The position numbers and the translations under genes were made by a program. 44,260 nucleotides of DNA from Thermoplasmatota archaeon (lineage in GTDB: Archaea; Thermoplasmatota; Thermoplasmata; Halarchaeoplasmatales; Halarchaeoplasmataceae): positions 1 to 44,260 of the forward strand of contig JAZKSH010000003.1 of assembly GCA_036626195.1 (NCBI GenBank). The letters run 5' to 3'. The notes below the pieces were generated by a model that did no database searches, was not told where the DNA came from, and worked only from the letters and a program-made list of their open reading frames with translations. Below, one piece after another: positions 18,685 through 42,429 of the stretch; position 1 is the stretch's first letter; every line of letters begins with the position of its first letter.

Positions 18685-19844
18685 AGAAGCCAGAAGATAC
18701 CATAGTGGAACTTACCTGCCCTGCATGCGGGGCCCATCCCAGACCTAACAGTGAGGAATGCTGGAGATGCGGTGAGAGATTTGAACAGGATCTGGTCAAG
18801 AAGATCAAAAAGAAAAGTAGTTTGGTCTCTATAGATATCGATCCGGACCAGAGGTACGCCGACTGGCTAAGATATATCTTTCCTGTCTTTATAGTGCCGC
18901 TCTTTTTCATAGGCGATCTACGCTTTTCCCTAGCTCTTTTTGGTTTCAGCTTCTTGGTTTTCTTTTCACAGCGAAGATGGTACAGGTATGGAGGTCGGAC
19001 CGGGATTTTCTCTGCAGTGCAGGTATTTATCCCATTTCTGCTGATCGTCTATCTGTTCGAACCAGTAGTTCCTATGCGTGAATTCGTGATCGTGGGGGCA
19101 TTGACCGCTGCCTCCGCCGTGGTGGTGCTGGTCTGCCGGGCTAGGCCCCGCTACATGAGTTTTGTCCTGCTAGGTGCCTTCACGGCTCTGACGAGCTTGG
19201 TTCCGCAGTATAGATTGATAGTGGTCGTTTTATCCGGTGTTATATTTGGGCTGCTGGTCTGGGAGTTCGTAGAGATAGATACTTATTTCGTTCCAGCCTA
19301 TCTTCTGCCGGTCCCTTTATTGAACATATTTATGGATTCCAACTCTGTGCTGGCGGCTTTCCTGTCCAGCGGCGTGGTTATCTCGATATTGATATTGTAT
19401 AGGGAATTGAACATCCGCCAGATCGATCCTATACTCATATACAGACTAGGCGGCCTTCACGAGGAAGAATTTACCGATGAATTTAGAGCTAGTGCTGAAG
19501 AAGATGTGGACTCGACGCTGAAGGTGGCGGACTCCTGGCTTCGGAGGGCAAAATATCAGCTTTCCGAGGGAGATTTGGAAGAGGCCAGGGAAAGTCTACA
19601 GAAAGCTCTTCGACAGGACGTGGACCCGGTCGAAGCCCACGTGATGCGCTACTATCTAGAGAGAGACGAGAAGATGCTTTCCTGGGCCAGGAGGATCTCC
19701 CTCAAGCACCTGAAGAAGTATCTCACGGAAAATTTGTCCTATAGGGAAAAATATTCTCTGCTAGACCTTGTTTCAAAAGCTTTTGAAAAGGAGAAGGTCG
19801 ATAGATACTTCGGTAACCTAGTAGGTCGAGAGAGGAAAGAGTGA
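18681..19844 (+). CDS. Membrane protein with N-terminal Zn-ribbon and C-terminal TPR-like helices
   Basis: CPACG...CWRCG, multi-pass hydrophobic core, WLRRAKYQLSEGDLEEARESLQKAL; ATGA overlap with the GT2 gene. Confidence 0.7.
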   Translation: MKKPEDTIVELTCPACGAHPRPNSEECWRCGERFEQDLVKKIKKKSSLVSIDIDPDQRYADWLRYIFPVFIVPLFFIGDLRFSLALFGFSFLVFFSQRRWYRYGGRTGIFSAVQVFIPFLLIVYLFEPVVPMREFVIVGALTAASAVVVLVCRARPRYMSFVLLGAFTALTSLVPQYRLIVVVLSGVIFGLLVWEFVEIDTYFVPAYLLPVPLLNIFMDSNSVLAAFLSSGVVISILILYRELNIRQIDPILIYRLGGLHEEEFTDEFRASAEEDVDSTLKVADSWLRRAKYQLSEGDLEEARESLQKALRQDVDPVEAHVMRYYLERDEKMLSWARRISLKHLKKYLTENLSYREKYSLLDLVSKAFEKEKVDRYFGNLVGRERKE

Positions 19845-19849
19845 GCCTA

Positions 19850-19873
19850 GGTCAGCAGGATGACCCCTTTTTT
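19850..19873 (+). terminator. Possible terminator of the GT2 operon
   Basis: GGTCA-gcagga-TGACC hairpin followed by a T run just after the stop codon. Confidence 0.4.
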
Positions 19874-20013
19874 GGTGTAGAAGTTTCGCAGTTATTATAA
19901 CCTTAGAGAGGTCAGAGAGCAAGTTTCCAGAGGAAGGGAGAACATCACCTTTCAGCTAGTACGATCGTTAGATATAGAGTTTTAATAGTCACACATGAGC
20001 CCTAATTCCCCGG

Positions 20014-20215
20014 CCTGTTTGGATTTTTAAATCCAAATTGGGTTAGAATGACCATTCTGACACCTATTTAGATTTCATATCTAAATGGTTTTAGAAAATT
20101 TTATTTTCTGATACCTGTTTAGAATCACTATTCTAAACGGATTTAGAAAGTTTCCTTTCTGATACCTGTTTATGATCGAATCATAAAGAGGATTAGAAGT
20201 TTTACTTCTGATACC
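20014..20215 (+). repeat. Tandem array A: four ~50-bp double-hairpin units
   Basis: Units start at 20014, 20063, 20114, 20165: CCTRTTT-(variable palindrome)-AAA..GG..TTAGAA-(variable)-TTCTGAYA. Confidence 0.9.
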
Positions 20216-20437
20216 TTCGAGGTCGTGGGATACTCGTGGGACAAGTTCCACTTTATCCTCGTTATCTAACAGGAAAGAATAAACTTTCCTGTGACCGCTA
20301 GAATCGTCAATTCTAGCTGGGTCTACTGGAATTTTGTAAAAATTCCATCGAGTATCAGAATTTTCGTGAAAATTCTAATTTAGTAGGAATCTTGGATTCC
20401 TACACTGCTGGGAAAACCTTGGTTTTCCCAAAGCACA

Positions 20438-20620
20438 CTGCGGATACTCGTGGAATAAATTCCCTTCATCCTCACTGTCCCTGCGGATGGTATCACAATC
20501 AAAGATTCTTTCCATCCTCGTTATCACTGTGGATGGTACAGGATTTCATCCTTGCATCCTCCCTGTCGGTGCGGATGGTATTGGATTTCATCCTACCATC
20601 CTCACTGTCGTTGCGGATAC
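20438..20620 (+). repeat. Tandem array B: four 42-46-bp hairpin units plus a partial fifth (another copy at 20225-20266)
   Basis: TGYGGAT-(variable inner hairpin)-ATCCTCNYTRTC, with GGAT at 20442, 20485, 20531, 20573 and 20615. Confidence 0.88.
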
Positions 20621-20931
20621 AGGGCGATTATATCAATGAATCTCAATCTCACCACTACACTAATAATTCTAGTGAGTCTAGGGCTATTCAAAAAGAACCA
20701 CAGCATTCTTCGGGGACTCCTCAAAGTACTCTACATGAAAATATTATATTTTCATTCGATATCAGGAATGTTATTCCTGAGATATCTAAGTGACTTTACT
20801 GGTCAATAAGTGAGTTCTAAGGAATAGCATTCCTTATCTTGAGAGAACACGTTCTCTCAATATGCCCGAGATTTATATCGGGGAGCACTCACTTCCTTTA
20901 GAACCCAAGGGTTCTCATCCCCTTAAAAAAA

Positions 20932-21005
20932 CGGACCCTCGGGGATTCGAACCCCGGTCCTCGGCTCCGAAAGCCGAAAGGATATCCTGACTACCCTAAG
21001 GGCCC
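20932..21005 (-). tRNA. tRNA-Arg (anticodon TCG)
   Basis: GGGCCCT/AGGGTCC acceptor stem, TCGGC-TT TCG GA-GCCGA anticodon arm, GGTTCGAATCC T-arm, T7 run downstream. Confidence 0.96.
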
Positions 21006-21088
21006 ACAGTGAACGTTAGTGAACGAAAAAGCCTTAGGGGAAGTTGGAACGTTTTGTTCCGACACGACCCTAAGGGCCCACAGTGAAC
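20993..21088. repeat. 22-bp direct repeat covering the tRNA-Arg 5' end, with intervening hairpin
   Basis: ACCCTAAGGGCCCACAGTGAAC at 20993-21014 and 21067-21088. Confidence 0.9.
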
Positions 21089-21172
21089 ATAGGTAGAGAG
21101 GAAAAAAGGGTGAACTCATTATTATCATTTGCCCCTTTATAGGGAGGTGGAAAAGGTGGTGTGCTCTTGAGT

Positions 21173-21925
21173 TCAATGGAGTAGGTTGATCAATAGGATG
21201 CCAAATATTATACCAGAAAGTATGCCTCCTATGGCGTAATGCCCTTTCATCCTTCTATGTGCATCGGGGATGAGCTCATCGAAAACTATGTAGAGCATCG
21301 CTCCTGCGGCGAATCCGAGACCTAGAGAGAGTGTTAGATCCGAAACCCCTCCTAACGCTCCACCGAGTAAGGCTCCGATACCCATAGGGATGCCGGCTAG
21401 AGTGGTGATAACCAATATTTTGGTGCCTTTGACCTTCCCGATACACATGGCAGCTCCGACGGCCATCCCCTCCGGAAAGTTATGGATCGCCATCAGCACG
21501 GCTAGAGCTAATCCCACTTCATAACTGACCATGAATCCGGCACCGATCGCAACGCCCTCGGGTAGATTATGCATCGCTACACCGACACTCAAGAGAAGCC
21601 CAGTCTTGATTGATTTCGCTCTCTCTTCATTTCCGTCGGAGTCAAAGGAGAAGTGCCTGTGAGGGAAGTTGATGTCGAGAAAACCGATGATGATTACACC
21701 CATGAGGAGTCCTACTATCGCGGTTAGTAAAGACCCTTCCTCTATGGATTCGGGTATAAGTTCCACAAAAGTTATGGAGACCATCACTCCTGCAGAAAAA
21801 CCGAGGAGGATACTCAAAACTTTATTTTCTATCTTTCTCACACCTACGACCGATAGTCCCCCTGCTGTGGTGCCCAAAACACCACTCAGCAGCCCGACCA
21901 GTGTGACGGTGATAATGTAATTCAT
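21173..21925 (-). CDS. ZIP (GufA/ZupT) family metal transporter
   Basis: GFSAGVM, MHNLPEG, IHNFPEG, AAGAMLYIVFDELIP. Confidence 0.93.
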   Translation of the reverse strand: MNYIITVTLVGLLSGVLGTTAGGLSVVGVRKIENKVLSILLGFSAGVMVSITFVELIPESIEEGSLLTAIVGLLMGVIIIGFLDINFPHRHFSFDSDGNEERAKSIKTGLLLSVGVAMHNLPEGVAIGAGFMVSYEVGLALAVLMAIHNFPEGMAVGAAMCIGKVKGTKILVITTLAGIPMGIGALLGGALGGVSDLTLSLGLGFAAGAMLYIVFDELIPDAHRRMKGHYAIGGILSGIIFGILLINLLH

Positions 21926-22738: not shown

Positions 22739-22806
22739 ATTGAGCAGTGCGAAAGAGTCTCGTGGTAATTTGGAATCTTTGATTCCTGTGCACCACGGGG
22801 CTATTG
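22727..22806. repeat. 16-bp direct repeat covering the tRNA-Gln 5' end, with intervening hairpin
   Basis: CACCACGGGGCTATTG at 22727-22742 and 22791-22806. Confidence 0.88.
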
Positions 22807-23634: not shown

Positions 23635-25733
<2,099 letters not shown>

Positions 25734-35620: not shown

Positions 35621-38600
35621 ATGGAAGGAAGATATGAAGTTTGGATGATGATGGCCGTTTCGGCACTGATGGCTTTGTTATTAGTAGGTTCGGCAGTAGG
35701 AGCACTTGGCCAAAGCGAAGAGAAGCAGATATCGATGGGAGAAAGTCCCTCTCTCACTGCAGCGGACGAGCTCAAGAATAAGACCATGTACTTTCACAAT
35801 GAAACTGGTACAGTCAATAATAATGTCGATGTTCTGACTATGAATACCACTATGGGTGATGATCTGAAGATAACTGAATGGACTTCCAATTCAATTACTA
35901 AGAATTGGTATCTAGATCCTCCTTTTGCAGGAAACTTTACCCTAAATGGGACCATTAGTACAAAGGTTTGGGTAAACCTCAGGAGTGGTTCTGGAACTAC
36001 TAATCGAGTCACGGTAAATATGACGCTTTATGAGGTTTCTGCCGACGGTAGCGAAGATAGCATCGGTACAGCCGAAAAATATCACGGAAACGGAAGAACG
36101 GTGTTCAATGAGTATAACGTATCGGGAAAATTCCACCATGAAATATCTAGAAATTCTACCTTGAGGTTAGAACTTGAATTATCGAATCCTAATTCAGTTG
36201 AAACAAAGGTTGCTTTCGGCGACTCTGAGTACCCCAGCAGGCTTGAAGTCGAAACTGACACCTACATCCAGCCCAAAAATCTCACCGTACTAGATTCTGA
36301 TTTCAACGGATCTTCCTCCTTCAGGCTCGGAGCGGACAACACAACGATCAATTTCAACGCCTCCGTTGTAGATCCGTTCGGAGGCTATGATATAAACCGA
36401 GTCAATATCACCGTTGAAGGACCAGATGGAACTGTCTTCTACCGGGAGCCCATGACCCAGGTGACCGGGAACGATACCACTTATAGAAGCAATTACACCT
36501 ATCAGTGGAACTACAGCGGAGCTCCTGAAGGAGATTATACCGTGATAGTCAGTGCCGTGGACAACACTGGCTACTACTACCGGTACCCGGATAACCCCGG
36601 CGATGAGACCTACGGAGGCCATCTCGAGTCCGTAGAGGAGGGTTTCTATATCGGCGCGCAGAGATACTTCATCCATTTCCAGACAAAAGATTCTTTGAAC
36701 AGGACCATGGAAGGTGCTAACGTTTCAGTTTACTCCTCTGGTGGAGAAGAAGTAACGTACAATCTCACCAATGATGAGGGTATAACCAATATCAGCGTTA
36801 CCGATGGTGAATACCTCATCCGGGTCTACTGGGAAGATATAGTGGTGAATGAAACGCTGTATCAGGTGAGCGATAACGTACCTTACGGGGAAGCCGTCGA
36901 GATGAATTGTTCAGTGTATGATTCCACCTACGAAATCCTTGACAGCCAGGATAATGTAGTGAAAAATGCGAACCTCTTTATACAGCATCCGAACGGCACG
37001 CTTCTCAGGAGAGTGACGGATGCAAATGGATTGGTCGAGATGAAACAGGCCCCTATAGGGAACTATACCGTGCAGATAGAATGGCTGGGCAGAGAAGTGG
37101 GATATACTGAACAGTACCTCAATTCGACTGAGAATATGACCTTGAACGCGAGGATATATTACCTGGAGATAACGACCGTGGACTCTCTTGGAGATCCGGT
37201 TTCTGAAGTACATGTATCCAGCCGCTTCAATGATACAGAACGTCTTGCAGATGCGAAGTTGACCGATATAAACGGCGAGACCATGATGAGGTTGCCCGGA
37301 ACTCAAGAGGGTTTCGGATATGACATTTCATTCCAATGGAGAGGCGTAGATGTTGGACAGATAGAAGGAGAGCCTCTTGAATCTGACAAGACGTTGGAAT
37401 TCACCATCGAAATTTATTACGTAGATTTCAGTCTTACAGATTCTATCGGGCAGGATCTTGAGGACGCTACTTTGAACGTATACAACCTCGAAACCAATAC
37501 TCTTGCAAATTCGGGAGTAACGGACGATGAAGGCAATGTGAGCCTGAGGCTTCCGAGAGGTCTTCATCAGGTCACGGTGACCTGGCGCGGACTAGAGGTG
37601 AATGAGACCCAGTTCGAGGTGACCGGAGATGATACCCTGGATATAGAATGTGCTGTCTATCACGTCGATTTCACGGCGGTGGACAGCAGAGACGAACCAC
37701 TTTCTGGTTCCCGGATCACGGTTTCACATCCCGACGTCGGTCTATTGAACAGCAAGACAGCCGATGAAGAAGGTAATGTGAGTATGAGACTACCTGGAGC
37801 GGTCCTAGAGGTCGAGGTAGATTGGAGAGGAGTCACGGTCTTCTCGCAGAACGTGGAGATCGATTCTAACGAACCAGTCCTTTTAGAAGCTGGAGTTTAC
37901 TACCTTGAATTCGAAGTCGTGGATGACTTGGAAGAACCTCTAGAAAACGCCCGCGTTGAGATATATCACGGAGGTACTTTCCTGGATGAGGATGTGACCA
38001 ACAACACCGGCATGACCGACGAGCTCAGGCTGCCCGGTGCGGATTTGAGTGTCACGGTATCTTGGAAAGAAGTTCAAGTATACGAGGGCAACATTGTTTT
38101 AGAACAAGATACCACTGAATATCTGCAGGTAGGAGTCTATCATGTCACATTTAGAGCCGAAGATGACCTGGGAGAGGCGATCCCGGATGCGAGGCTGAGA
38201 GTTACCAATGACGGGAACTTGCTGCTCAGCGGTCGAACAGATGGAGAAGGAAACATATCCAGTAGGATACCTGGTGCCGTCAACAGGGTAACTTTGGACT
38301 GGCACGGGGTCAGAGTCTATGCGGACGATATGCTCATCGATGCGTCGGAAGAGAGGTTGCTTGAAGTCGAGGCCGTGCATCGGTTGGACTACACGGTCAT
38401 CGATTCTCGGGACGAACCACTTGAGAGAGCAACACTCGACTTCTACGTTGAAGGGAATTTCGTCGGGACAAGGATAACTGATGGTGACGGGTTCCTCACG
38501 GTACGGGTACCAACGCCCTATGACGCCGCGGGAGAGTTAGAGATCTACGGGCGATGGAGAGACGTATCCGTCTACGAAGAGAACTTCACCATCGATTCGC

Positions 38601-40669
38601 ATCAAGAAGAGGATCTGAGAGCCGAGGTTTACTACCTTGATTACACGGTTGTAGACGATCAAGGAGTGCCTATCGAGAACGCTAAAGTGATCGGCCGACA
38701 TTCAGAACTTCCAGAAAGGCGCAACATAATCACAGATAAACTCACCGACGAGAACGGCTACATCGAATTCCGGCTGCCTAGAGGTGAGCAGGAGTTCACC
38801 GTTAACTGGAGAGGCATCATGATATATCAGCACTCGATGGATATCACGTCGGATGTTGAAGAAGAGGTTACATCTCACGTGTACTATCTCACCATTGATG
38901 TGGTCGATGATGAAGGAGAACCGCTGCAAGACGCTTTCGTGAGGGTCACTTACGAAGAAACACCCCGTCTCTACCATTCCGATTATACTGGCCAGGACGG
39001 CAGCGTCGAAGCCAGGATCCCTAGAGCTACTTGGGGCATCGAGGTAGAATGGATGAACAAGGTCGTTTACGAGGAGTCCTACGAAGTCACAACCACGGAA
39101 GAGATCGAAATTCAGACCACCGTGTATTATCTGAACATGAACGTAGTCGATGATGAAGGAGAACCGTTGGAAGGAGCTTATGTGAGTTTGAATTATGCAG
39201 ATACGGGAGAGTTCTATCACGCCGGATATACTGACATGGATGGACAGCTAGATGTCAAGATACCGGGAGCTCTATGGGATATCGAGGTAGAGTGGAAAGG
39301 CATAACCGTTTATGAAGAGGAGTACGAAGTCACCGCTACGGAAGAGAAAGAGATTTCCGCTTCGGTTTATTACCTGTCCATGAACGTTGTAGATGACGAA
39401 GGGGAGCCCATCGAAATGGCTAGAGTCATACTCAACTACGCCGATACCGGAGAATTCTATCACGCTAAATATACCGACGATGGAGGAGAGGTGGAAGTCC
39501 GGATTCCTGAGGCAACATGGGATATCGAGGTGAAATGGGAAGATATAACCGTATATGAAGAAGAGTACGAAGTCACCACAACCGAAGAAAAAGAGGTCTC
39601 CGCATCGGTTTACTACTTGTCCATGGACGTGGTCGATGCCGAAGGAGACCCCATCAAAGGGGCCCGAGTCACCGTAGACTACGCTGATACGGGTGAGTTT
39701 TACCATGCTGAATATACCGATGAAGGTGGGGCTATCGAATTCAGGCTACCGGAACACGAGTGGGATGTTGAGATAAAGTGGTTGGAGATCAGTGTTTATG
39801 AGGACACTTACGATGTCAATTCTACAGAAGAGCTCGAAGTCGAAACTTCTGTTTACCATGTATCCATGGAAGTGGTTGATGACAAAGGGATAGCGCTGGA
39901 GGACGCTCAGGTGAAAATGAGGAATCCCGTTACCGGGGAGATATACAGTCCACTTAGCCGAGTTACGGACTCATCGGGAGAGATAGAGACGAGGATACCA
40001 GAAGGTATTTGGGACGTAGAGGTCCGGTGGAAGAACACGGTTGTACATCAGGAGGAATACGACTTCAGCTCTACCGTGGAAGAAGAGATCTCCACAGACG
40101 TTTACTACCTCACGGTGAGAACCGAAGATGGAGATGGAGAATCTATAGACGATGTCCACGTGAGAGTTATGACCAGACAGCAGAGTTGGACAGAATACAC
40201 TTCAAATGGAACGGCGGAATTCAGACTGCCGGCTAGAGACGATTATGAGATAACGGCTTCTTATCGAACGACTTACCTTTTGACGGATATAGACCTCCAG
40301 GAAAACGAGCAGATGAGCTTGACCGAGACCACGGAGCAGACCATGGAGTTCGAAGAGTATCCGATACCGTTCTACCGCACCAATCTGTTCTTCCTAGTGC
40401 TGGTACTGATCATTTTGTTGGCTATACTAGGGGTAATGTATTCCAAGAAAGGCCCGAAGGAAGAGGAAGAACCTGAAGAGTTCGAGGAAGAAGAGAGTGA
40501 AGAGACTGAAGAGTCTGAGCTCTTCGGCGAAGAAGAAGGTGAAGAATCAGAGGAGTCTGAAGAGTTCGGCGAAGAAGAGAGTGAAGAGTCTGAGATATTC
40601 GGTGAATCAGAAGAGAGTGAAGAATCAGAGGAGTCTGAAGAGTTCGGCGAAGAAGAGGAATTATTTTGA
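35621..40669 (+). CDS. Giant surface protein (1682 aa), paralog of the upstream gene, with acidic C-terminal tail
   Basis: Same architecture (KNKT.Y, DPFGGYDI, ~80-aa repeats, YRTT.LLT, YPIPFY + TM), then an EESEESEEFG low-complexity tail. Confidence 0.85.
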   Translation: MEGRYEVWMMMAVSALMALLLVGSAVGALGQSEEKQISMGESPSLTAADELKNKTMYFHNETGTVNNNVDVLTMNTTMGDDLKITEWTSNSITKNWYLDPPFAGNFTLNGTISTKVWVNLRSGSGTTNRVTVNMTLYEVSADGSEDSIGTAEKYHGNGRTVFNEYNVSGKFHHEISRNSTLRLELELSNPNSVETKVAFGDSEYPSRLEVETDTYIQPKNLTVLDSDFNGSSSFRLGADNTTINFNASVVDPFGGYDINRVNITVEGPDGTVFYREPMTQVTGNDTTYRSNYTYQWNYSGAPEGDYTVIVSAVDNTGYYYRYPDNPGDETYGGHLESVEEGFYIGAQRYFIHFQTKDSLNRTMEGANVSVYSSGGEEVTYNLTNDEGITNISVTDGEYLIRVYWEDIVVNETLYQVSDNVPYGEAVEMNCSVYDSTYEILDSQDNVVKNANLFIQHPNGTLLRRVTDANGLVEMKQAPIGNYTVQIEWLGREVGYTEQYLNSTENMTLNARIYYLEITTVDSLGDPVSEVHVSSRFNDTERLADAKLTDINGETMMRLPGTQEGFGYDISFQWRGVDVGQIEGEPLESDKTLEFTIEIYYVDFSLTDSIGQDLEDATLNVYNLETNTLANSGVTDDEGNVSLRLPRGLHQVTVTWRGLEVNETQFEVTGDDTLDIECAVYHVDFTAVDSRDEPLSGSRITVSHPDVGLLNSKTADEEGNVSMRLPGAVLEVEVDWRGVTVFSQNVEIDSNEPVLLEAGVYYLEFEVVDDLEEPLENARVEIYHGGTFLDEDVTNNTGMTDELRLPGADLSVTVSWKEVQVYEGNIVLEQDTTEYLQVGVYHVTFRAEDDLGEAIPDARLRVTNDGNLLLSGRTDGEGNISSRIPGAVNRVTLDWHGVRVYADDMLIDASEERLLEVEAVHRLDYTVIDSRDEPLERATLDFYVEGNFVGTRITDGDGFLTVRVPTPYDAAGELEIYGRWRDVSVYEENFTIDSHQEEDLRAEVYYLDYTVVDDQGVPIENAKVIGRHSELPERRNIITDKLTDENGYIEFRLPRGEQEFTVNWRGIMIYQHSMDITSDVEEEVTSHVYYLTIDVVDDEGEPLQDAFVRVTYEETPRLYHSDYTGQDGSVEARIPRATWGIEVEWMNKVVYEESYEVTTTEEIEIQTTVYYLNMNVVDDEGEPLEGAYVSLNYADTGEFYHAGYTDMDGQLDVKIPGALWDIEVEWKGITVYEEEYEVTATEEKEISASVYYLSMNVVDDEGEPIEMARVILNYADTGEFYHAKYTDDGGEVEVRIPEATWDIEVKWEDITVYEEEYEVTTTEEKEVSASVYYLSMDVVDAEGDPIKGARVTVDYADTGEFYHAEYTDEGGAIEFRLPEHEWDVEIKWLEISVYEDTYDVNSTEELEVETSVYHVSMEVVDDKGIALEDAQVKMRNPVTGEIYSPLSRVTDSSGEIETRIPEGIWDVEVRWKNTVVHQEEYDFSSTVEEEISTDVYYLTVRTEDGDGESIDDVHVRVMTRQQSWTEYTSNGTAEFRLPARDDYEITASYRTTYLLTDIDLQENEQMSLTETTEQTMEFEEYPIPFYRTNLFFLVLVLIILLAILGVMYSKKGPKEEEEPEEFEEEESEETEESELFGEEEGEESEESEEFGEEESEESEIFGESEESEESEESEEFGEEEELF
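40474..40660 (+). repeat. Coding minisatellite-like repeats (Glu/Ser-rich tail)
   Basis: GAAGAATCAGAGGAGTCTGAAGAGTTCGGCGAAGAAGAG occurs twice (near 40541 and 40619), with degenerate copies. Confidence 0.8.
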
Positions 40670-40824: not shown

Positions 40825-42429
40825 TTGAAGATAGGAAAAGCAAATGATGGAAGGATTAAGAACGACGTTTCCCATATCAATGGCGTCGTAGCTCTATTTT
40901 CGCTTTTTTTAATCATCTCGTTGTTGACCCCATCGGCAGTGAGCGGGGAACCCACGAAAGATGTCAAAAGGCGGGATGGAAGTGATCTTAGCAGTGAAAC
41001 AGTTTTAGATAGAGGTTTTCCGGACCAAGACGAACCTGGTGATCCGCCGGACCCGGATCCCCCTGATCCTGTCATCCCTGATCCGGGTAATTTTAGCAGG
41101 AGGATAGGAGGCTTCGGTGAAGGAAAAGAAGGCAGCTTTGTTTCTTTTGATAGTATGGAAGAAGGGATCGAAGATTACACTCATCACCGGTATGTCGAGG
41201 ACGAGATTACTCTGTTCAATAGCATTAGTATCGAGGATCTTACCATCTATGAAGAGAATCCTAGAGATTATCTTTACGAGATAAGAGGAGATAGGGCGAA
41301 CTTTCAGATGTACGATAAGCCCTCGGCGCTGATGACTATCGACGTTATGCCGGAAGAAGGACGGGAGAGAGAACAGCAAATCAGCTTTCAGGTCGGCGAG
41401 GAGAATCTAGCAATTACACCGAGAGGGGGTAAAGGTGAAGGAGTGAAGATAGATTACGGTGAATTCAAAGGAACGTTGATACCCTACGGCCCGATAGAGG
41501 GTAGGAGAGATAAAATCACAGCTCGATCTCCATACATCAACTTCACTGTCAGAGAGCAGACATCCTTCGTTTTCAGGATAGAAGAAACGAGATCTTATGA
41601 CGACGCCGATATATCCGATATAATGAATCAGGGCATCGAGTCAGGACAAATCGGGGCCGAGGTCAGGGTCGAAGCTGTGAACGGCGACCATAAACAGATG
41701 TCCATGATCTACGACAGGATCAACGTGCTGAGTCAGATTTTAAACGATAGAGGCTTTCGGATGATGGTCACCTCCGATACTCTTGAGGACGAAGGGAAGG
41801 TTATCATCGCTGATGTATCCTCTACCGTGATGAACGTGTCTAACAAAGATGACCTGAACGTCACTTTCGATGGAGAATCTATCGATAGGGTCGACAGTTA
41901 TTCCGAACTCACCGCGAGATCGGACGAGGCAACTTACCTGGTACTTACGGGTGATGAAGGTGCTAAAGTCTTCGTGAACGTGCCTCAGTTCTCCACACAT
42001 ACTATAGTCATAGAGGGCGTGACAGATGGTGTGGATGAGCCTGTGGTAGAAGAAAGTTACATCGGCGATCTTCTATATTACCTGCCCGGGGTTGTGATTT
42101 CAGCCCTTGTGGTGGTTCTAGGTGCCCTGATAGCGAAGTCTAAAAAGTCCGAGGGAAAAGAAAAAGATTTGGGAGGAAAAGAGAGAAAAGGAAAGAAGAA
42201 GGATAAAAAGAAGAAGTCTCAGGGGAAGAAAGGCGAAGACGGAAAAAGCAAGGGGCAAACTAAAGCTAAAGAAAAACGATTCGAAAGGATCGGCAAGGAT
42301 GGTGTAGTTTCTGTAGGAGCGAACCCGAATAACTATGACCGCGGCAAGGGAAATGAGAAAAGGATAAAGGGTTCGAAAAGCTCTAAGAAAAGTGAAAAAG
42401 AAGACAAAAAGGATAAAGAGGACGAGTGA
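40825..42429 (+). CDS. Membrane-anchored extracellular protein with Lys-rich C-terminal tail
   Basis: Signal-like N-terminus, Pro/Asp linker, beta-rich domain ending VPQFSTHTIVI, TM, K/G-rich tail. Confidence 0.75.
   Translation: MKIGKANDGRIKNDVSHINGVVALFSLFLIISLLTPSAVSGEPTKDVKRRDGSDLSSETVLDRGFPDQDEPGDPPDPDPPDPVIPDPGNFSRRIGGFGEGKEGSFVSFDSMEEGIEDYTHHRYVEDEITLFNSISIEDLTIYEENPRDYLYEIRGDRANFQMYDKPSALMTIDVMPEEGREREQQISFQVGEENLAITPRGGKGEGVKIDYGEFKGTLIPYGPIEGRRDKITARSPYINFTVREQTSFVFRIEETRSYDDADISDIMNQGIESGQIGAEVRVEAVNGDHKQMSMIYDRINVLSQILNDRGFRMMVTSDTLEDEGKVIIADVSSTVMNVSNKDDLNVTFDGESIDRVDSYSELTARSDEATYLVLTGDEGAKVFVNVPQFSTHTIVIEGVTDGVDEPVVEESYIGDLLYYLPGVVISALVVVLGALIAKSKKSEGKEKDLGGKERKGKKKDKKKKSQGKKGEDGKSKGQTKAKEKRFERIGKDGVVSVGANPNNYDRGKGNEKRIKGSKSSKKSEKEDKKDKEDE

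What the first reader, a model, noticed from the sequence alone, without database searches (positions are those of the whole stretch)
20012..20920. ~900-nt non-coding element tiled with more than 20 hairpins next to tRNA-Arg: candidate giant structured ncRNA
Seen: nearly the whole gap between the GT2 operon and tRNA-Arg is made of back-to-back inverted repeats. Besides arrays A and B these include 20269-20292 ACAGGAAAG/CTTTCCTGT, 20297-20317 GCTAGAAT/ATTCTAGC, 20327-20347, 20357-20376, 20383-20403 GTAGGAATC/GATTCCTAC, 20409-20430 TGGGAAAACC/GGTTTTCCCA, 20735-20755, 20762-20780, 20818-20836, 20839-20860 TTGAGAGAAC/GTTCTCTCAA and 20900-20915. Most stems share an RGAA..TTCY or GGAT..ATCC core while the rest varies. 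Recurrent T-G oppositions pair only on the + strand, and a TATA-like TTTTAATA (19980-19987) lies ~25 nt before the first unit. Known: large ornate bacterial RNAs such as GOLLD occur near tRNAs, but I recognise no archaeal RNA with this layout. Inference: a single-stranded multivalent scaffold or protein sponge, a precursor of small RNAs, or accumulated REP-like ssDNA hairpins.
Basis: partly seen in the sequence, partly recalled or inferred. Interest (0 to 1): 0.88.

Follow-up and report, generated by a model that had tools for sequence, protein, structure and literature searches.

The report
Dead IS200 element stuffed with hairpin repeats
The hairpin-dense stretch beside tRNA-Arg is not a giant RNA gene but the wreck of a small jumping gene (IS200 type) colonised by short mobile hairpin repeats, which resemble bacterial REP/BIME elements and are found across this family of Thermoplasmata archaea.

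Summary
The hairpin density is real. 14 of the window's 18 perfect hairpins lie in 20018-20860, against 0.12 expected from shuffles, and it is the densest cluster in the genome.

The stretch 19982-20894 is a defective IS200/IS605-family insertion sequence. Its ends and a 38-codon C-terminal tnpA remnant are collinear with copies in relatives that encode a Y1 transposase. With the hairpin blocks removed, 224 nt align to those copies at 77-84% identity. The other ~690 nt are hairpin modules sitting in the unpaired loops of the IS end hairpins.

These modules are dispersed repeats. A CTAC-hairpin-TCGA signature occurs in G000 and 23 of 24 other same-family genomes (1-39 copies) and in 0 of 16 other-family genomes. 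Their stems covary. Filled and empty sites can be seen inside tnpA copies.

The modules lie in both orientations. The three orthologous tRNA-Arg loci whose sequence downstream of the tRNA I read in relatives lack the region. Rfam matches only the tRNA.

Verdict: an accumulation of mobile DNA, not one structured RNA. The mechanism that moves the hairpins, and whether they are transcribed, remain untested. Interest is moderate, as a defined REP/BIME-like repeat family in archaea.

The parts
19982..20015 (+). IS left end, 5' half. It starts at TTAATAGTCAC and carries the 5' strands of the outer and inner stems of the left-end hairpin.
   Evidence: Sharp onset of conservation among 9 copies from 6 genomes. 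88-95% identity to L061, L064, L071 and L072. Two-tier hairpin in intact copies.
20016..20215 (+). Array A: four tandem ~50-nt units, each with two hairpins, inserted in the apical loop of the IS left-end hairpin. The G.T wobbles favour the + strand. The unit aligns better to hairpins 2-3 of the 20322 module when reverse-complemented (local score 14.0) than in direct orientation (8.5).
   Evidence: TRF period 51. All 8 hairpins are more stable on +. Homologous IS derivatives have 1 unit (L063) or 2 units (L062) at the same position, and intact copies (L064, L068, L061) have none. The limits are uncertain by ~2 nt because CC is repeated.
20216..20233 (+). IS left end, 3' strand of the inner stem plus ATAC (internal loop).
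   Evidence: Collinear with L064, L061 and L068 once the hairpin blocks are removed. Read.
20234..20620 (.). Inserted block in the internal loop of the left-end hairpin. It holds one B-type unit (20234-20258), six back-to-back hairpins (20259-20438, including the dispersed CTAC module at 20322-20437) and array B (20439-20620, four ~42-46-nt units, each ending in GGATAC or GGATGG).
   Evidence: 20255-20445 recurs at 93% identity on another contig of G006, between sequences that match no other part of this window. More than 20 copies of the 20322-20390 module occur in relatives. TRF period 42. Hairpins here favour the - strand or neither. B-type insertions sit at the same site in L063 and L062.
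20621..20628 (+). IS left end, 3' strand of the outer stem (AGGGCGAT). It is followed directly by the deletion junction that removed ~475-540 nt: the 5' UTR and most of tnpA.
   Evidence: The collinear alignment jumps from reference position 176 to 651 in L068, 181 to 669 in L064 and 178 to 768 in L061.
20629..20730 (+). Remnant of the 3' end of tnpA (Y1 HUH transposase, C-terminal ~35 codons).
   Evidence: BLASTP of the 20629-20742 translation against the intact TnpA of L068: 23/37 identical, E 4e-13, residues 126-162 of 165. Also found by the genome search. DNA matches at 72-84% in 8 loci.
20731..20785 (+). 55-nt two-hairpin mini-element (CTAC - hairpin - TCGATA - hairpin - GATAT) inserted near the tnpA stop. 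Its edges are ambiguous by 1-4 nt.
   Evidence: Same syntax and size as the 53-59-nt insertions that interrupt tnpA in L061 and L064, where other copies have empty sites. Matches the family pattern. DNA fold z -5.7 on + and -5.9 on -.
20786..20814 (+). IS right end, first part, including the 5' strand (AAGTGAG) of the outer right-end stem.
   Evidence: 87-96% identity to L061, L064, L066 and L073. Right-end fold.
20815..20863 (.). 49-nt two-hairpin insertion in the internal loop of the right-end hairpin.
   Evidence: Absent from L064, L068 and L061. Present at the same place in the derivative copies L063 (G009) and L062 (G023). The fold keeps the outer right-end stem closed around it.
20864..20894 (+). 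IS right end: inner hairpin and terminus (ends in CACTCACTT).
   Evidence: In the right-end alignment of 6 copies, conservation stops after this motif in the window, L064 and L068. L061 keeps it one base shorter, and L063 and L062 are diverged there.
20895..20930 (-). Flank of the host tRNA gene, not part of the IS: a T-run and a conserved hairpin (GAACCC tt GGGTTC) just downstream of tRNA-Arg.
   Evidence: The same module occurs at G000:C1:62546-62586 and downstream of other tRNAs. It is duplicated in G006:C24.
20931..21006 (-). tRNA-Arg(TCG).
   Evidence: ARAGORN. Rfam RF00005, 54.4 bits.

Best explanation
Window 19982-20894 is a non-autonomous, decayed copy of an IS200-group insertion sequence (IS200/IS605 family, tnpA only). 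It landed 36 nt downstream of tRNA-Arg.

Only ~224 nt of the IS survive. These are the left end with its two-tier hairpin, the last ~35 codons of tnpA and the right end with its two-tier hairpin. About 475-540 nt, covering the 5' UTR and most of tnpA, are deleted.

The remaining ~690 nt (75%) are short hairpin modules of 20-25 nt each, with a GGAA/TTCC-type stem core. They come as two-hairpin mini-elements of ~50-55 nt and as tandem arrays. They sit in the unpaired loops of the IS end hairpins and next to the tnpA stop. These modules belong to a dispersed repeat family specific to this Thermoplasmata family, which forms BIME-like clusters elsewhere in those genomes.

Shown: the IS homology and its limits, the collinearity, the insertion polymorphism of the modules, their dispersal, their stem covariation and their mixed orientation.

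Inferred (about 40% confidence): the modules move as folded single-stranded DNA through a Y1 HUH transposase acting in trans, as IS200/IS605 ends and bacterial REPs do. On this view they insert next to a T without a target duplication, and tandem arrays grow because each unit recreates the short target at its own end.

The hairpin-loaded derivative itself seems to have kept moving. Copies with the same loop insertions lie at unrelated loci in G000, G009 and G023.
For: IS backbone.
- The left end is conserved from TTAATAG in 9 copies, with unrelated sequence to its left.
- The right end closes at CACTCACTT in the window, L064 and L068.
- The intact ORF in L068 scores 101.2 bits against PF01797 (cut-off 23) and 106.6 bits against NF033573 IS200 (cut-off 55), and it matches solved IS200/IS605 transposases.
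- The window remnant is 62% identical to that ORF's C-terminus, E 4e-13.
- The window with hairpin blocks removed (224 nt) aligns collinearly over 221-222 nt at 0.77-0.84 identity, with one large gap at the tnpA body.

Lineage-specific insertion.
- ZIP transporter and tRNA-Arg synteny holds in 8 of 9 fetched loci.
- G002, G012 and G024 have only ~100-150 nt and then unrelated genes after the tRNA.
- Several relatives' contigs end at this tRNA.

Modules are mobile repeats.
- Inserts of 59 and 55 nt in the tnpA of L061 and of 53 nt in the tnpA of L064 face empty sites in the other copies.
- Pattern CTACNKGAA-N(8-20)-TTCMNTCGA: found in 24 of 41 genomes, all of them in the window's own family (23 of 24 plus G000), with 1-39 copies each. 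It was found in 0 of 16 genomes of other families. The reversed control gave 0-1.
- On 22 copies, 94% of cells pair against 83% in shuffles. 13 of 28 pairs change on both sides, and 0 of 500 shuffles reach the observed covariation score.
- Clusters of 7-14 such hairpins occur in G003 away from any transposase.

Insertions sit in loops of the end hairpins. Array A has 1, 2 or 4 units in homologous derivatives.
Against: - No Y1 transposase gene was found in G000 itself. PF01797 gave 0 matches in a 93.5%-complete, 200-contig assembly, and only the window remnant matched the L068 protein.
- In the genus, every copy of this tnpA type that I saw is a fragment or is interrupted. Only 12 of 24 same-family genomes have any PF01797 hit, while 23 of 24 have the hairpin signature. 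A present-day mobilising enzyme is therefore not identified.
- The GGAA/TTCC stems of the modules do not resemble the IS's own end hairpins.
- The filled/empty comparisons are between paralogous IS copies in different genomes, not between alleles, and precise deletion cannot be excluded.
- The tandem arrays could grow by replication slippage rather than by insertion.
- The family pattern and the 22-copy alignment were derived from sequences chosen for similarity to the window, which favours agreement.
- Transcription was not tested.
Confidence: 0.85

Rival explanations
1. A single long, highly structured non-coding RNA is transcribed from the TATA-like box at 19980 across all hairpins. It acts as a multivalent protein scaffold or sponge, or as a precursor of small RNAs.
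For: The whole stretch folds far better than shuffles, z -12.3 on the + strand. The IS terminus TTTAATAG could double as an archaeal TATA box for the former tnpA transcript (reading; inference). Stems covary. Array A carries G.T wobbles that pair only on +.
Against: The - strand folds almost as well, z -10.6. 6 of 25 hairpin segments prefer the - strand, and a conserved C.A on + (T.G on -) is present in 22 of 22 module copies. The region is absent from the three orthologous loci whose downstream sequence I read. The backbone is an IS remnant. Homologous copies differ in module number and content. No Rfam family reaches threshold.
Confidence: 0.05
2. The hairpins are host-functional palindromes, for example binding sites of a family-specific protein or RNA/DNA structure signals also used near tRNA genes. 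The array would then be a co-opted cluster (decoy, boundary or regulatory element) rather than selfish DNA.
For: The palindrome GGAATC-N3-GATTCC has 19 sites in G000 and occurs in 23 of 24 same-family genomes, against 0-2 sites in the 16 other-family genomes. Such hairpins lie 20-120 nt from 12 tRNA genes of G000. They are part of the 5'-copy modules upstream of 10 of 41 tRNAs.
Against: Distal stem sequence is free to vary as long as pairing is kept, which is not expected of a sequence-specific duplex site. Units interrupt transposase genes. The content of clusters is not conserved between relatives.
Confidence: 0.1
3. The hairpin arrays arose in place by tandem duplication or replication slippage of a few founder hairpins inside a dead IS, without any transposition of units.
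For: Arrays A and B are head-to-tail repeats with periods of 51 and 42 nt. The unit number of array A varies (1, 2, 4) between homologous copies.
Against: The same modules occur at many unrelated loci and in eight genera. Single two-hairpin units appear as clean insertions in different places of tnpA. Modules of opposite orientation lie side by side. Slippage may still account for unit number within arrays A and B.
Confidence: 0.12
4. Assembly artefact: repeats from different loci of a metagenome were chimerically joined next to the tRNA.
For: The genome is a 200-contig MAG. Several relatives' contigs break at this tRNA. No sequencing run held more than 7% of the sampled words, so the reads could not be checked.
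Against: The stretch is collinear with real IS copies from end to end. Derivative copies in G009 and G023 show the same loop insertions in the same order. A 190-nt internal block is 93% identical in G006.
Confidence: 0.03

Closest known systems
IS200/IS605 family, IS200 group (tnpA-only), and its non-autonomous derivatives (PATEs, palindrome-associated transposable elements)
   Same: Relatives' copies encode a Y1 HUH transposase above the curated cut-offs. The ends carry subterminal hairpins, with no terminal inverted repeats and no target duplication visible at the window copy. The window copy keeps both ends but lacks the transposase, as PATEs do. The term PATE appears in PMC3119063, which I saw only in the listing. 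Per passages of PMC6006769, typical IS200 transposases are the only Y1 subclass seen in Archaea and are flanked by small subterminal hairpins.
   Different: Three quarters of this copy is secondary hairpin insertions placed in the loops of its own end hairpins. I have not seen such loading described, and I did not search ISfinder, which was not available here.
Bacterial REP / BIME / REPIN elements and their RAYT transposases
   Same: Short hairpins with covarying stems, occasional G.T pairs, short loops and singletons. One head-to-head dimer was seen (the 59-nt insert in L061). There are tandem clusters with flanking DNA, units inside genes and insertion into other palindromes. All these traits are listed for REPs in the passages of PMC3733652 that I read. 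Distribution is limited to one lineage.
   Different: The conserved tetranucleotide is CTAC on the 5' side of the hairpin, so GTAG lies 3' of the hairpin on the other strand. In REPs, GTAG precedes the hairpin. No RAYT was found: the only transposase type linked to the backbone scores 38.8 bits against the REP_Tyr_transpos model, cut-off 80. Copy numbers are tens, not hundreds. The host is an archaeon. In the passages I read, GTAG and CGTC REPs were reported from bacterial phyla only and the REP-associated Y1 subclasses from bacteria only. PMC12306157 reports 'REPs' in archaea, but defines them as any intergenic palindrome that is not a terminator.
   Same: Size of several hundred nt, many hairpins, neighbourhood of a tRNA.
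   Different: No Rfam family reaches its threshold. There is no conserved overall architecture, the polarity is mixed and the backbone is an IS.
Modular repeats such as pneumococcal BOX elements (recalled from memory, not checked in any call)
   Same: A variable number of internal hairpin-forming units between conserved end modules, comparable with array A having 1, 2 or 4 units.
   Different: Unrelated host and sequence. This is an analogy only.

Membership tests
IS200/IS605 family (IS200 group) element | Encodes a Y1 HUH transposase (TnpA, PF01797 / NF033573) | tested here: not met
   The window keeps only 38 C-terminal codons, so it is not an autonomous member. Homologous copies in relatives do encode it: L068 scores 101.2 and 106.6 bits, above both cut-offs.
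IS200/IS605 family (IS200 group) element | Conserved left and right ends with subterminal hairpins, collinear with autonomous copies | tested here: met
   Left-end alignment of 9 copies, right-end alignment of 6 copies, collinear 224-nt framework at 77-84% identity, two-tier hairpins at both ends.
IS200/IS605 family (IS200 group) element | No terminal inverted repeats and no target-site duplication | tested here: met
   By reading: the termini TTAATAGTCAC and CACTCACTT are not inverted copies of each other, and the flanks at 19972-19981 and 20895-20904 share no repeat. Checked by eye only.
REP / BIME (REPtron) system | Short dispersed hairpin repeats with covarying stems, often clustered | tested here: met
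   Copy numbers are modest, at 1-39 per genome by a strict pattern.
REP / BIME (REPtron) system | Unpaired GTAG (or CGTC) tag at the 5' end of the hairpin | tested here: not met
   The tag is CTAC 5' of the hairpin and TCGA 3' of it. GTAG therefore lies 3' of the hairpin on the complementary strand. Definition taken from PMC3733652 passages.
REP / BIME (REPtron) system | A cognate RAYT gene flanked by the repeats | tested here: not met
   No PF01797 match in G000. The IS200-type TnpA of relatives scores below the RAYT model's cut-off, 38.8 against 80 bits. The genes next to seven hairpin-cluster loci I fetched in G001, G002, G003 and G009 (8 ORFs scanned) were a GT2 glycosyltransferase, MatE, DUF3368 and a TnpB fragment, not RAYT. 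Relatives were not searched with the RAYT model itself.
Classical MITE (terminal inverted repeats plus target-site duplication) | Terminal inverted repeats and a duplicated target | tested here: not met
   The two-hairpin units start with CTAC and end with (A)ATAT or TAAT. There is at most a 1-nt T ambiguity at the three filled/empty sites.
Any Rfam RNA family (including GOLLD, tmRNA, CRISPR repeats) | Covariance-model score at or above the gathering threshold | tested here: not met
   Only tRNA passes. The best other match is 26.9 bits against a threshold of 48. ARAGORN's permuted 'tmRNA' at 20497-21025 has no Rfam support.

The most novel reading that the evidence does not exclude
This Thermoplasmata family carries a genuine archaeal counterpart of the bacterial REP/BIME/REPIN world. 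It would be a lineage-restricted population of hairpin mini-elements with a CTAC-hairpin-TCGA syntax and a GGAA/TTCC stem core. These elements would spread as folded single-stranded DNA and preferentially colonise the loops of other hairpins: IS ends, and perhaps the 5' parts of tRNA genes, where 10 of 41 tRNAs carry a copy of their own first 9-17 nt upstream, in most cases followed by such a hairpin. A still unidentified, or now decayed, Y1 transposase would mobilise them. The 900-nt array beside tRNA-Arg would then be the archaeal equivalent of a large BIME built on an IS carcass.
Probability: 0.35. Interest if true: 0.65.

Novelty: new variant of a known kind. Interest (0 to 1): 0.4.

Why it matters
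It removes a false lead. A striking 900-nt 'ornate RNA' candidate turns out to be an IS200 carcass loaded with repeats, so it should not be added to lists of new archaeal ncRNAs.

It also defines a repeat family with clear syntax, stem covariation, insertion polymorphism and a sharp taxonomic boundary in an uncultured soda-lake Thermoplasmata lineage. In the passages I read, REP-type elements and their Y1 enzymes are described from bacteria (PMC3733652, PMC6006769), and the archaeal 'REPs' of PMC12306157 are defined only as non-terminator palindromes. A defined archaeal family would allow a test of whether hairpin-guided single-strand transposition also shapes archaeal genomes.

In practice these repeats break MAG assemblies, since contigs of several relatives end at this tRNA. 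They can also be mistaken for structured RNAs, CRISPR-like arrays or tmRNA; ARAGORN made the tmRNA error here.

Tried and rejected
- Rfam scan at E<=10 of 19500-21500: only the tRNA passed. The weak IMES-4, miRNA and CRISPR-DR45 hits were all far below threshold and were rejected.
- The ARAGORN 'tmRNA*' at 20497-21025 was rejected as spurious.
- ORFs inside the region (133, 85, 56 and 50 aa): no Pfam family even at E<=1. The 133-aa frame is merely in phase with the tnpA remnant.
- CRISPR, replication origin and C/D-box sRNA readings were considered from the sequence and dropped. The region has no identical repeats with unique spacers, no cdc6 or ORB context was seen, and there are no C/D boxes.
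- Search for a transposase flanked by the hairpins. The canonical tnpA-tnpB IS605 copies of relatives that I displayed (L074 and L077, of the 20 loci) have no GGAA-core hairpins beside them. 8 ORFs next to hairpin clusters in seven fetched loci were a GT2 glycosyltransferase, DUF3368, MatE, a TnpB fragment or had no Pfam family. A tnpB 3' end abuts the CTAC module in only 2 of the 21 fetched module copies. No enzyme could be assigned.
- Orthologous empty-site test for another G000 hairpin cluster (C170) in 5 close relatives. That locus is itself a mosaic of dispersed repeats, so no clean comparison came out of it.
- RNA evidence: no RNA holder was listed, and the six DNA runs held only 5-7% of the sampled words. 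Read laying was therefore not used. Expression remains untested.
- A plain global alignment of the whole window stretch to intact IS copies was too noisy. It was replaced by the framework alignment.
Supplements of the papers were not opened, and the additional files of PMC3733652 listing REP families could hold archaeal cases that I did not see.
Full report
**Organism and setting.** The window is contig C3 of a 2.18-Mb, 200-contig assembly with 46% GC. It has intron-bearing tRNAs. The closest homologs of a conserved DUF763 protein are in soda-lake Thermoplasmata and Candidatus Natronoplasma MAGs. The region lies between a GT2/TPR gene pair ending at 19844 and tRNA-Arg(TCG) on the minus strand at 20931-21006.

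**The observation.** With a strict definition (perfect stem >=8 bp, loop 1-7 nt), 14 of the 18 hairpins in the 44-kb window lie in 20018-20860. Five hundred dinucleotide shuffles of 19982-20894 give a mean of 0.116 and never more than 2. Across the genome there are 301 such hairpins (0.14 per kb), and this is the densest cluster.
- Twenty-five local segments fold into hairpins.
- The whole stretch folds far better than shuffles on both strands: z -12.3 on + and -10.6 on -.
- Arrays A and B are tandem repeats with periods of 51 and 42 nt.
- The hairpin density is therefore real and far beyond chance.
- The polarity claim is only partly right. The eight hairpins of array A do favour the + strand, but six hairpins in 20294-20562 favour the - strand and nine are symmetric.

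**Not a conserved locus.** In relatives, the ZIP transporter and tRNA-Arg synteny is kept in 8 of 9 fetched loci. In G002, G012 and G024 the tRNA is followed by ~100-150 nt and then unrelated genes, with no hairpin region. In several other relatives the contig simply ends at this tRNA, as expected next to repeated DNA. Rfam reports only the tRNA.

**A mosaic of dispersed modules.** BLAST of 19900-21100 against 40 relatives did not return one homologous region. It returned many short matches to separate pieces, each at many unrelated places. Two examples are 20322-20390, with more than 20 copies and several in G003 alone, and 20627-20738.

**The backbone is an IS200-group insertion sequence.** Five loci in relatives carry pieces of the window in the same order: L061, L062, L063, L064 and L068.
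- L068 has an intact 165-aa ORF between these pieces, and in L061 and L064 the same ORF is interrupted only by short hairpin inserts. L063 and L062 are degraded derivatives.
- The L068 ORF scores 101.2 bits against PF01797 (Y1_Tnp) and 106.6 bits against NF033573 (IS200/IS605 transposase, cut-off 55).
- It scores only 38.8 bits against the REP-associated tyrosine transposase model, cut-off 80.
- It matches solved IS200/IS605 transposases.

Window 20629-20742 translates to 38 residues that are 62% identical to the C-terminus of this protein, E 4e-13.

At the right end it stops after CACTCACTT in the window, L064 and L068.

When the hairpin blocks are cut out by coordinate, the remaining 224 nt of the window align collinearly to L068, L064 and L061 over 221-222 nt. 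Identity is 0.77-0.84, with one long gap where the 5' UTR and most of tnpA should be. The element is therefore 19982-20894: a tnpA-deleted derivative with both ends retained.

**Where the hairpin blocks sit.** In intact copies both ends fold, as single-stranded DNA, into two-tier hairpins.
- Array A (20016-20215) sits in the apical loop of the left-end hairpin.
- The block 20234-20620 sits in the left-end internal loop, after ATAC.
- A 49-nt two-hairpin piece (20815-20863) sits in the internal loop of the right-end hairpin, whose outer stem still closes around it.
- A 55-nt two-hairpin unit (20731-20785) lies beside the tnpA stop.

Derivative copies at unrelated loci in G009 (L063) and in another genus, G023 (L062), carry insertions at the same three end positions. 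Array A has one and two units there, against four in the window. Either the loaded derivative kept transposing, or these loops are hot spots.

**The hairpin modules are repeats in their own right.** Inside tnpA copies there are clean filled and empty sites.
- L061 has a 59-nt insert (a head-to-head hairpin pair) and a 55-nt insert where L064 and L068 are uninterrupted.
- L064 has a 53-nt insert where L068 and L061 are uninterrupted.
- Each insert starts with CTAC, ends in AT-rich (A)ATAT or TAAT, follows a T, and shows no duplication beyond a 1-nt ambiguity.

The signature CTAC-N-KGAA...TTCM-N-TCGA was found in 24 of 41 genomes.
- All 24 belong to the window's own family: 23 of 24 relatives plus G000, with 1-39 copies each (4 in G000).
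- It was found in 0 of 16 genomes of other families of the class.
- The reversed control pattern gave 0-1 hit.

On 22 copies of the 20322-20437 module, the three hairpins pair in 94% of cells, against 83% in shuffles and 27-56% when slid. Thirteen of 28 pairs change on both sides, and one position is an invariant C.A on the + strand, hence T.G on the - strand.

G003 holds clusters of 7-14 such hairpins beside ordinary genes. The units are also found inside a tnpB gene. Reverse-complemented, the array A unit aligns to hairpins 2-3 of this module better (local score 14.0) than in direct orientation (8.5). The window therefore holds units in both orientations.

**Mechanism.** The points above are shown. 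The mode of movement is inferred.
- IS200/IS605 elements transpose as single-stranded circles. Their Y1 transposase recognises subterminal hairpins and inserts next to a short target without duplication. This is established knowledge and is restated in the abstract of PMC6006769 as listed. Bacterial REPs are thought to be moved by related RAYT enzymes (PMC3733652 passages).
- The units here fit that style. They have hairpins with conserved mismatches, no duplication, insertion into loops of other hairpins, and arrays whose units end in the motif they follow.
- The enzyme is unidentified. G000 has no PF01797 match. This tnpA type is fragmentary or interrupted throughout the genus. Only 12 of 24 same-family genomes have any Y1 transposase hit. 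The unit stems do not resemble the IS end hairpins.
- I put about 40% on trans-mobilisation by a Y1 enzyme. Slippage probably contributes to array length.

**Comparison with known systems.** The backbone is a member-derived remnant of the IS200 group, comparable to PATE-type derivatives. The hairpin units work like REP/BIME/REPIN elements but fail two defining tests. The tag is CTAC 5' of the hairpin rather than GTAG, and no RAYT is present.

In the passages I read, GTAG and CGTC REPs were catalogued in bacterial phyla, and only the classical IS200 subclass of Y1 proteins was seen in Archaea. A 2025 tool paper counts 'REPs' in archaea, but defines them as any non-terminator intergenic palindrome. 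My literature searches found no description of this family. They cover open-access text only, and supplements were closed.

**Verdict.** The region is an IS200 carcass loaded with a lineage-specific family of REP-like hairpin mini-elements. The kind of thing is known. What is new is the archaeal host, the CTAC/TCGA syntax and the colonisation of hairpin loops. Interest 0.4.

Noticed in passing
window 21046-21080 and 22739-22802; also G000 contigs C1, C65, C89, C102, C122, C124, C179, C192: 10 of 41 tRNA genes carry an exact copy of their own first 9-17 nt, 53-111 nt upstream. For tRNA-Leu(gag) and tRNA-Gly(gcc) the copy occurs three times in tandem. In most of them the copy is followed by a hairpin (a GGAA(T)C/G(A)TTCC core in the Gln, Ser, Leu and Arg-TCG cases), and in several by a stretch complementary to the copied 5' end. 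For tRNA-Gln(CTG) the upstream copy can pair with the tRNA's 3' acceptor strand in the MFE fold. Possible readings are a 12-nt target duplication around a small insert, a relic of site-specific integration, or a long structured 5' leader. None was resolved.
   Followed up: partly
G000 genome-wide; window 20385-20401 and 22770-22790: The palindrome GGAATC-N3-GATTCC has 19 sites in G000. It is present in 23 of 24 same-family genomes (1-24 sites) and has 0-2 sites in the 16 genomes of other families. The reversed control gave 0 everywhere. Among the perfect hairpins with a GGAA/AGAA-core stem, 17 lie within 20-120 nt of 12 tRNA genes.
   Followed up: partly
window 20895-20930 (minus strand); G000:C1:62546-62586; downstream of tRNA-Ser on C4 and tRNA-Cys on C75: A conserved module lies right after the T-run of several tRNA genes: GGGATGAGAACCC tt GGGTTCTAAAGG, a hairpin. 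It is duplicated in tandem in G006:C24, and together with a duplicated tRNA-Arg(TCT) 3' end on C1. It could be an attachment-site relic or a trailer structure.
   Followed up: no
G000 contigs C3 (27947-28020), C61, C102, C122, C124: Several tRNA-Leu genes share near-identical upstream or downstream flanking sequence, as if the genes had spread together with their flanks. The upstream flank is shared by C102, C122 and C124, and the downstream flank by C3, C61, C102 and C124.
   Followed up: no
window 23635-25733: Adjacent QueA (PF02547, 409 bits) and bacterial-type TGT (PF01702, 451.5 bits) genes sit in an archaeon. This queuosine-type tRNA modification pair is usually associated with bacteria (from my own knowledge, not checked).
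   Followed up: no
window 20497-21025: ARAGORN calls a permuted tmRNA with the tag peptide ATTVRMVG across array B and the tRNA. Rfam gives no tmRNA match there, so it is a false positive caused by the tRNA plus the hairpins.
   Followed up: yes
L096 = G003:C1:42000-45000 and L040 = G011:C80: A TnpB (Cas12f1-like TNB domain) gene is split by hairpin units, and its reading frame runs into a CTAC module at its 3' end, where the guide-RNA scaffold of such elements would lie.
   Followed up: no
window 39125-39720 and 40466-40659: Long tandem repeats of period 243, and of periods 78, 42 and 27, lie inside the very large ORFs at 35621-40669 and 40825-42429. They are probably repeat domains of surface proteins. 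Not examined.
   Followed up: no
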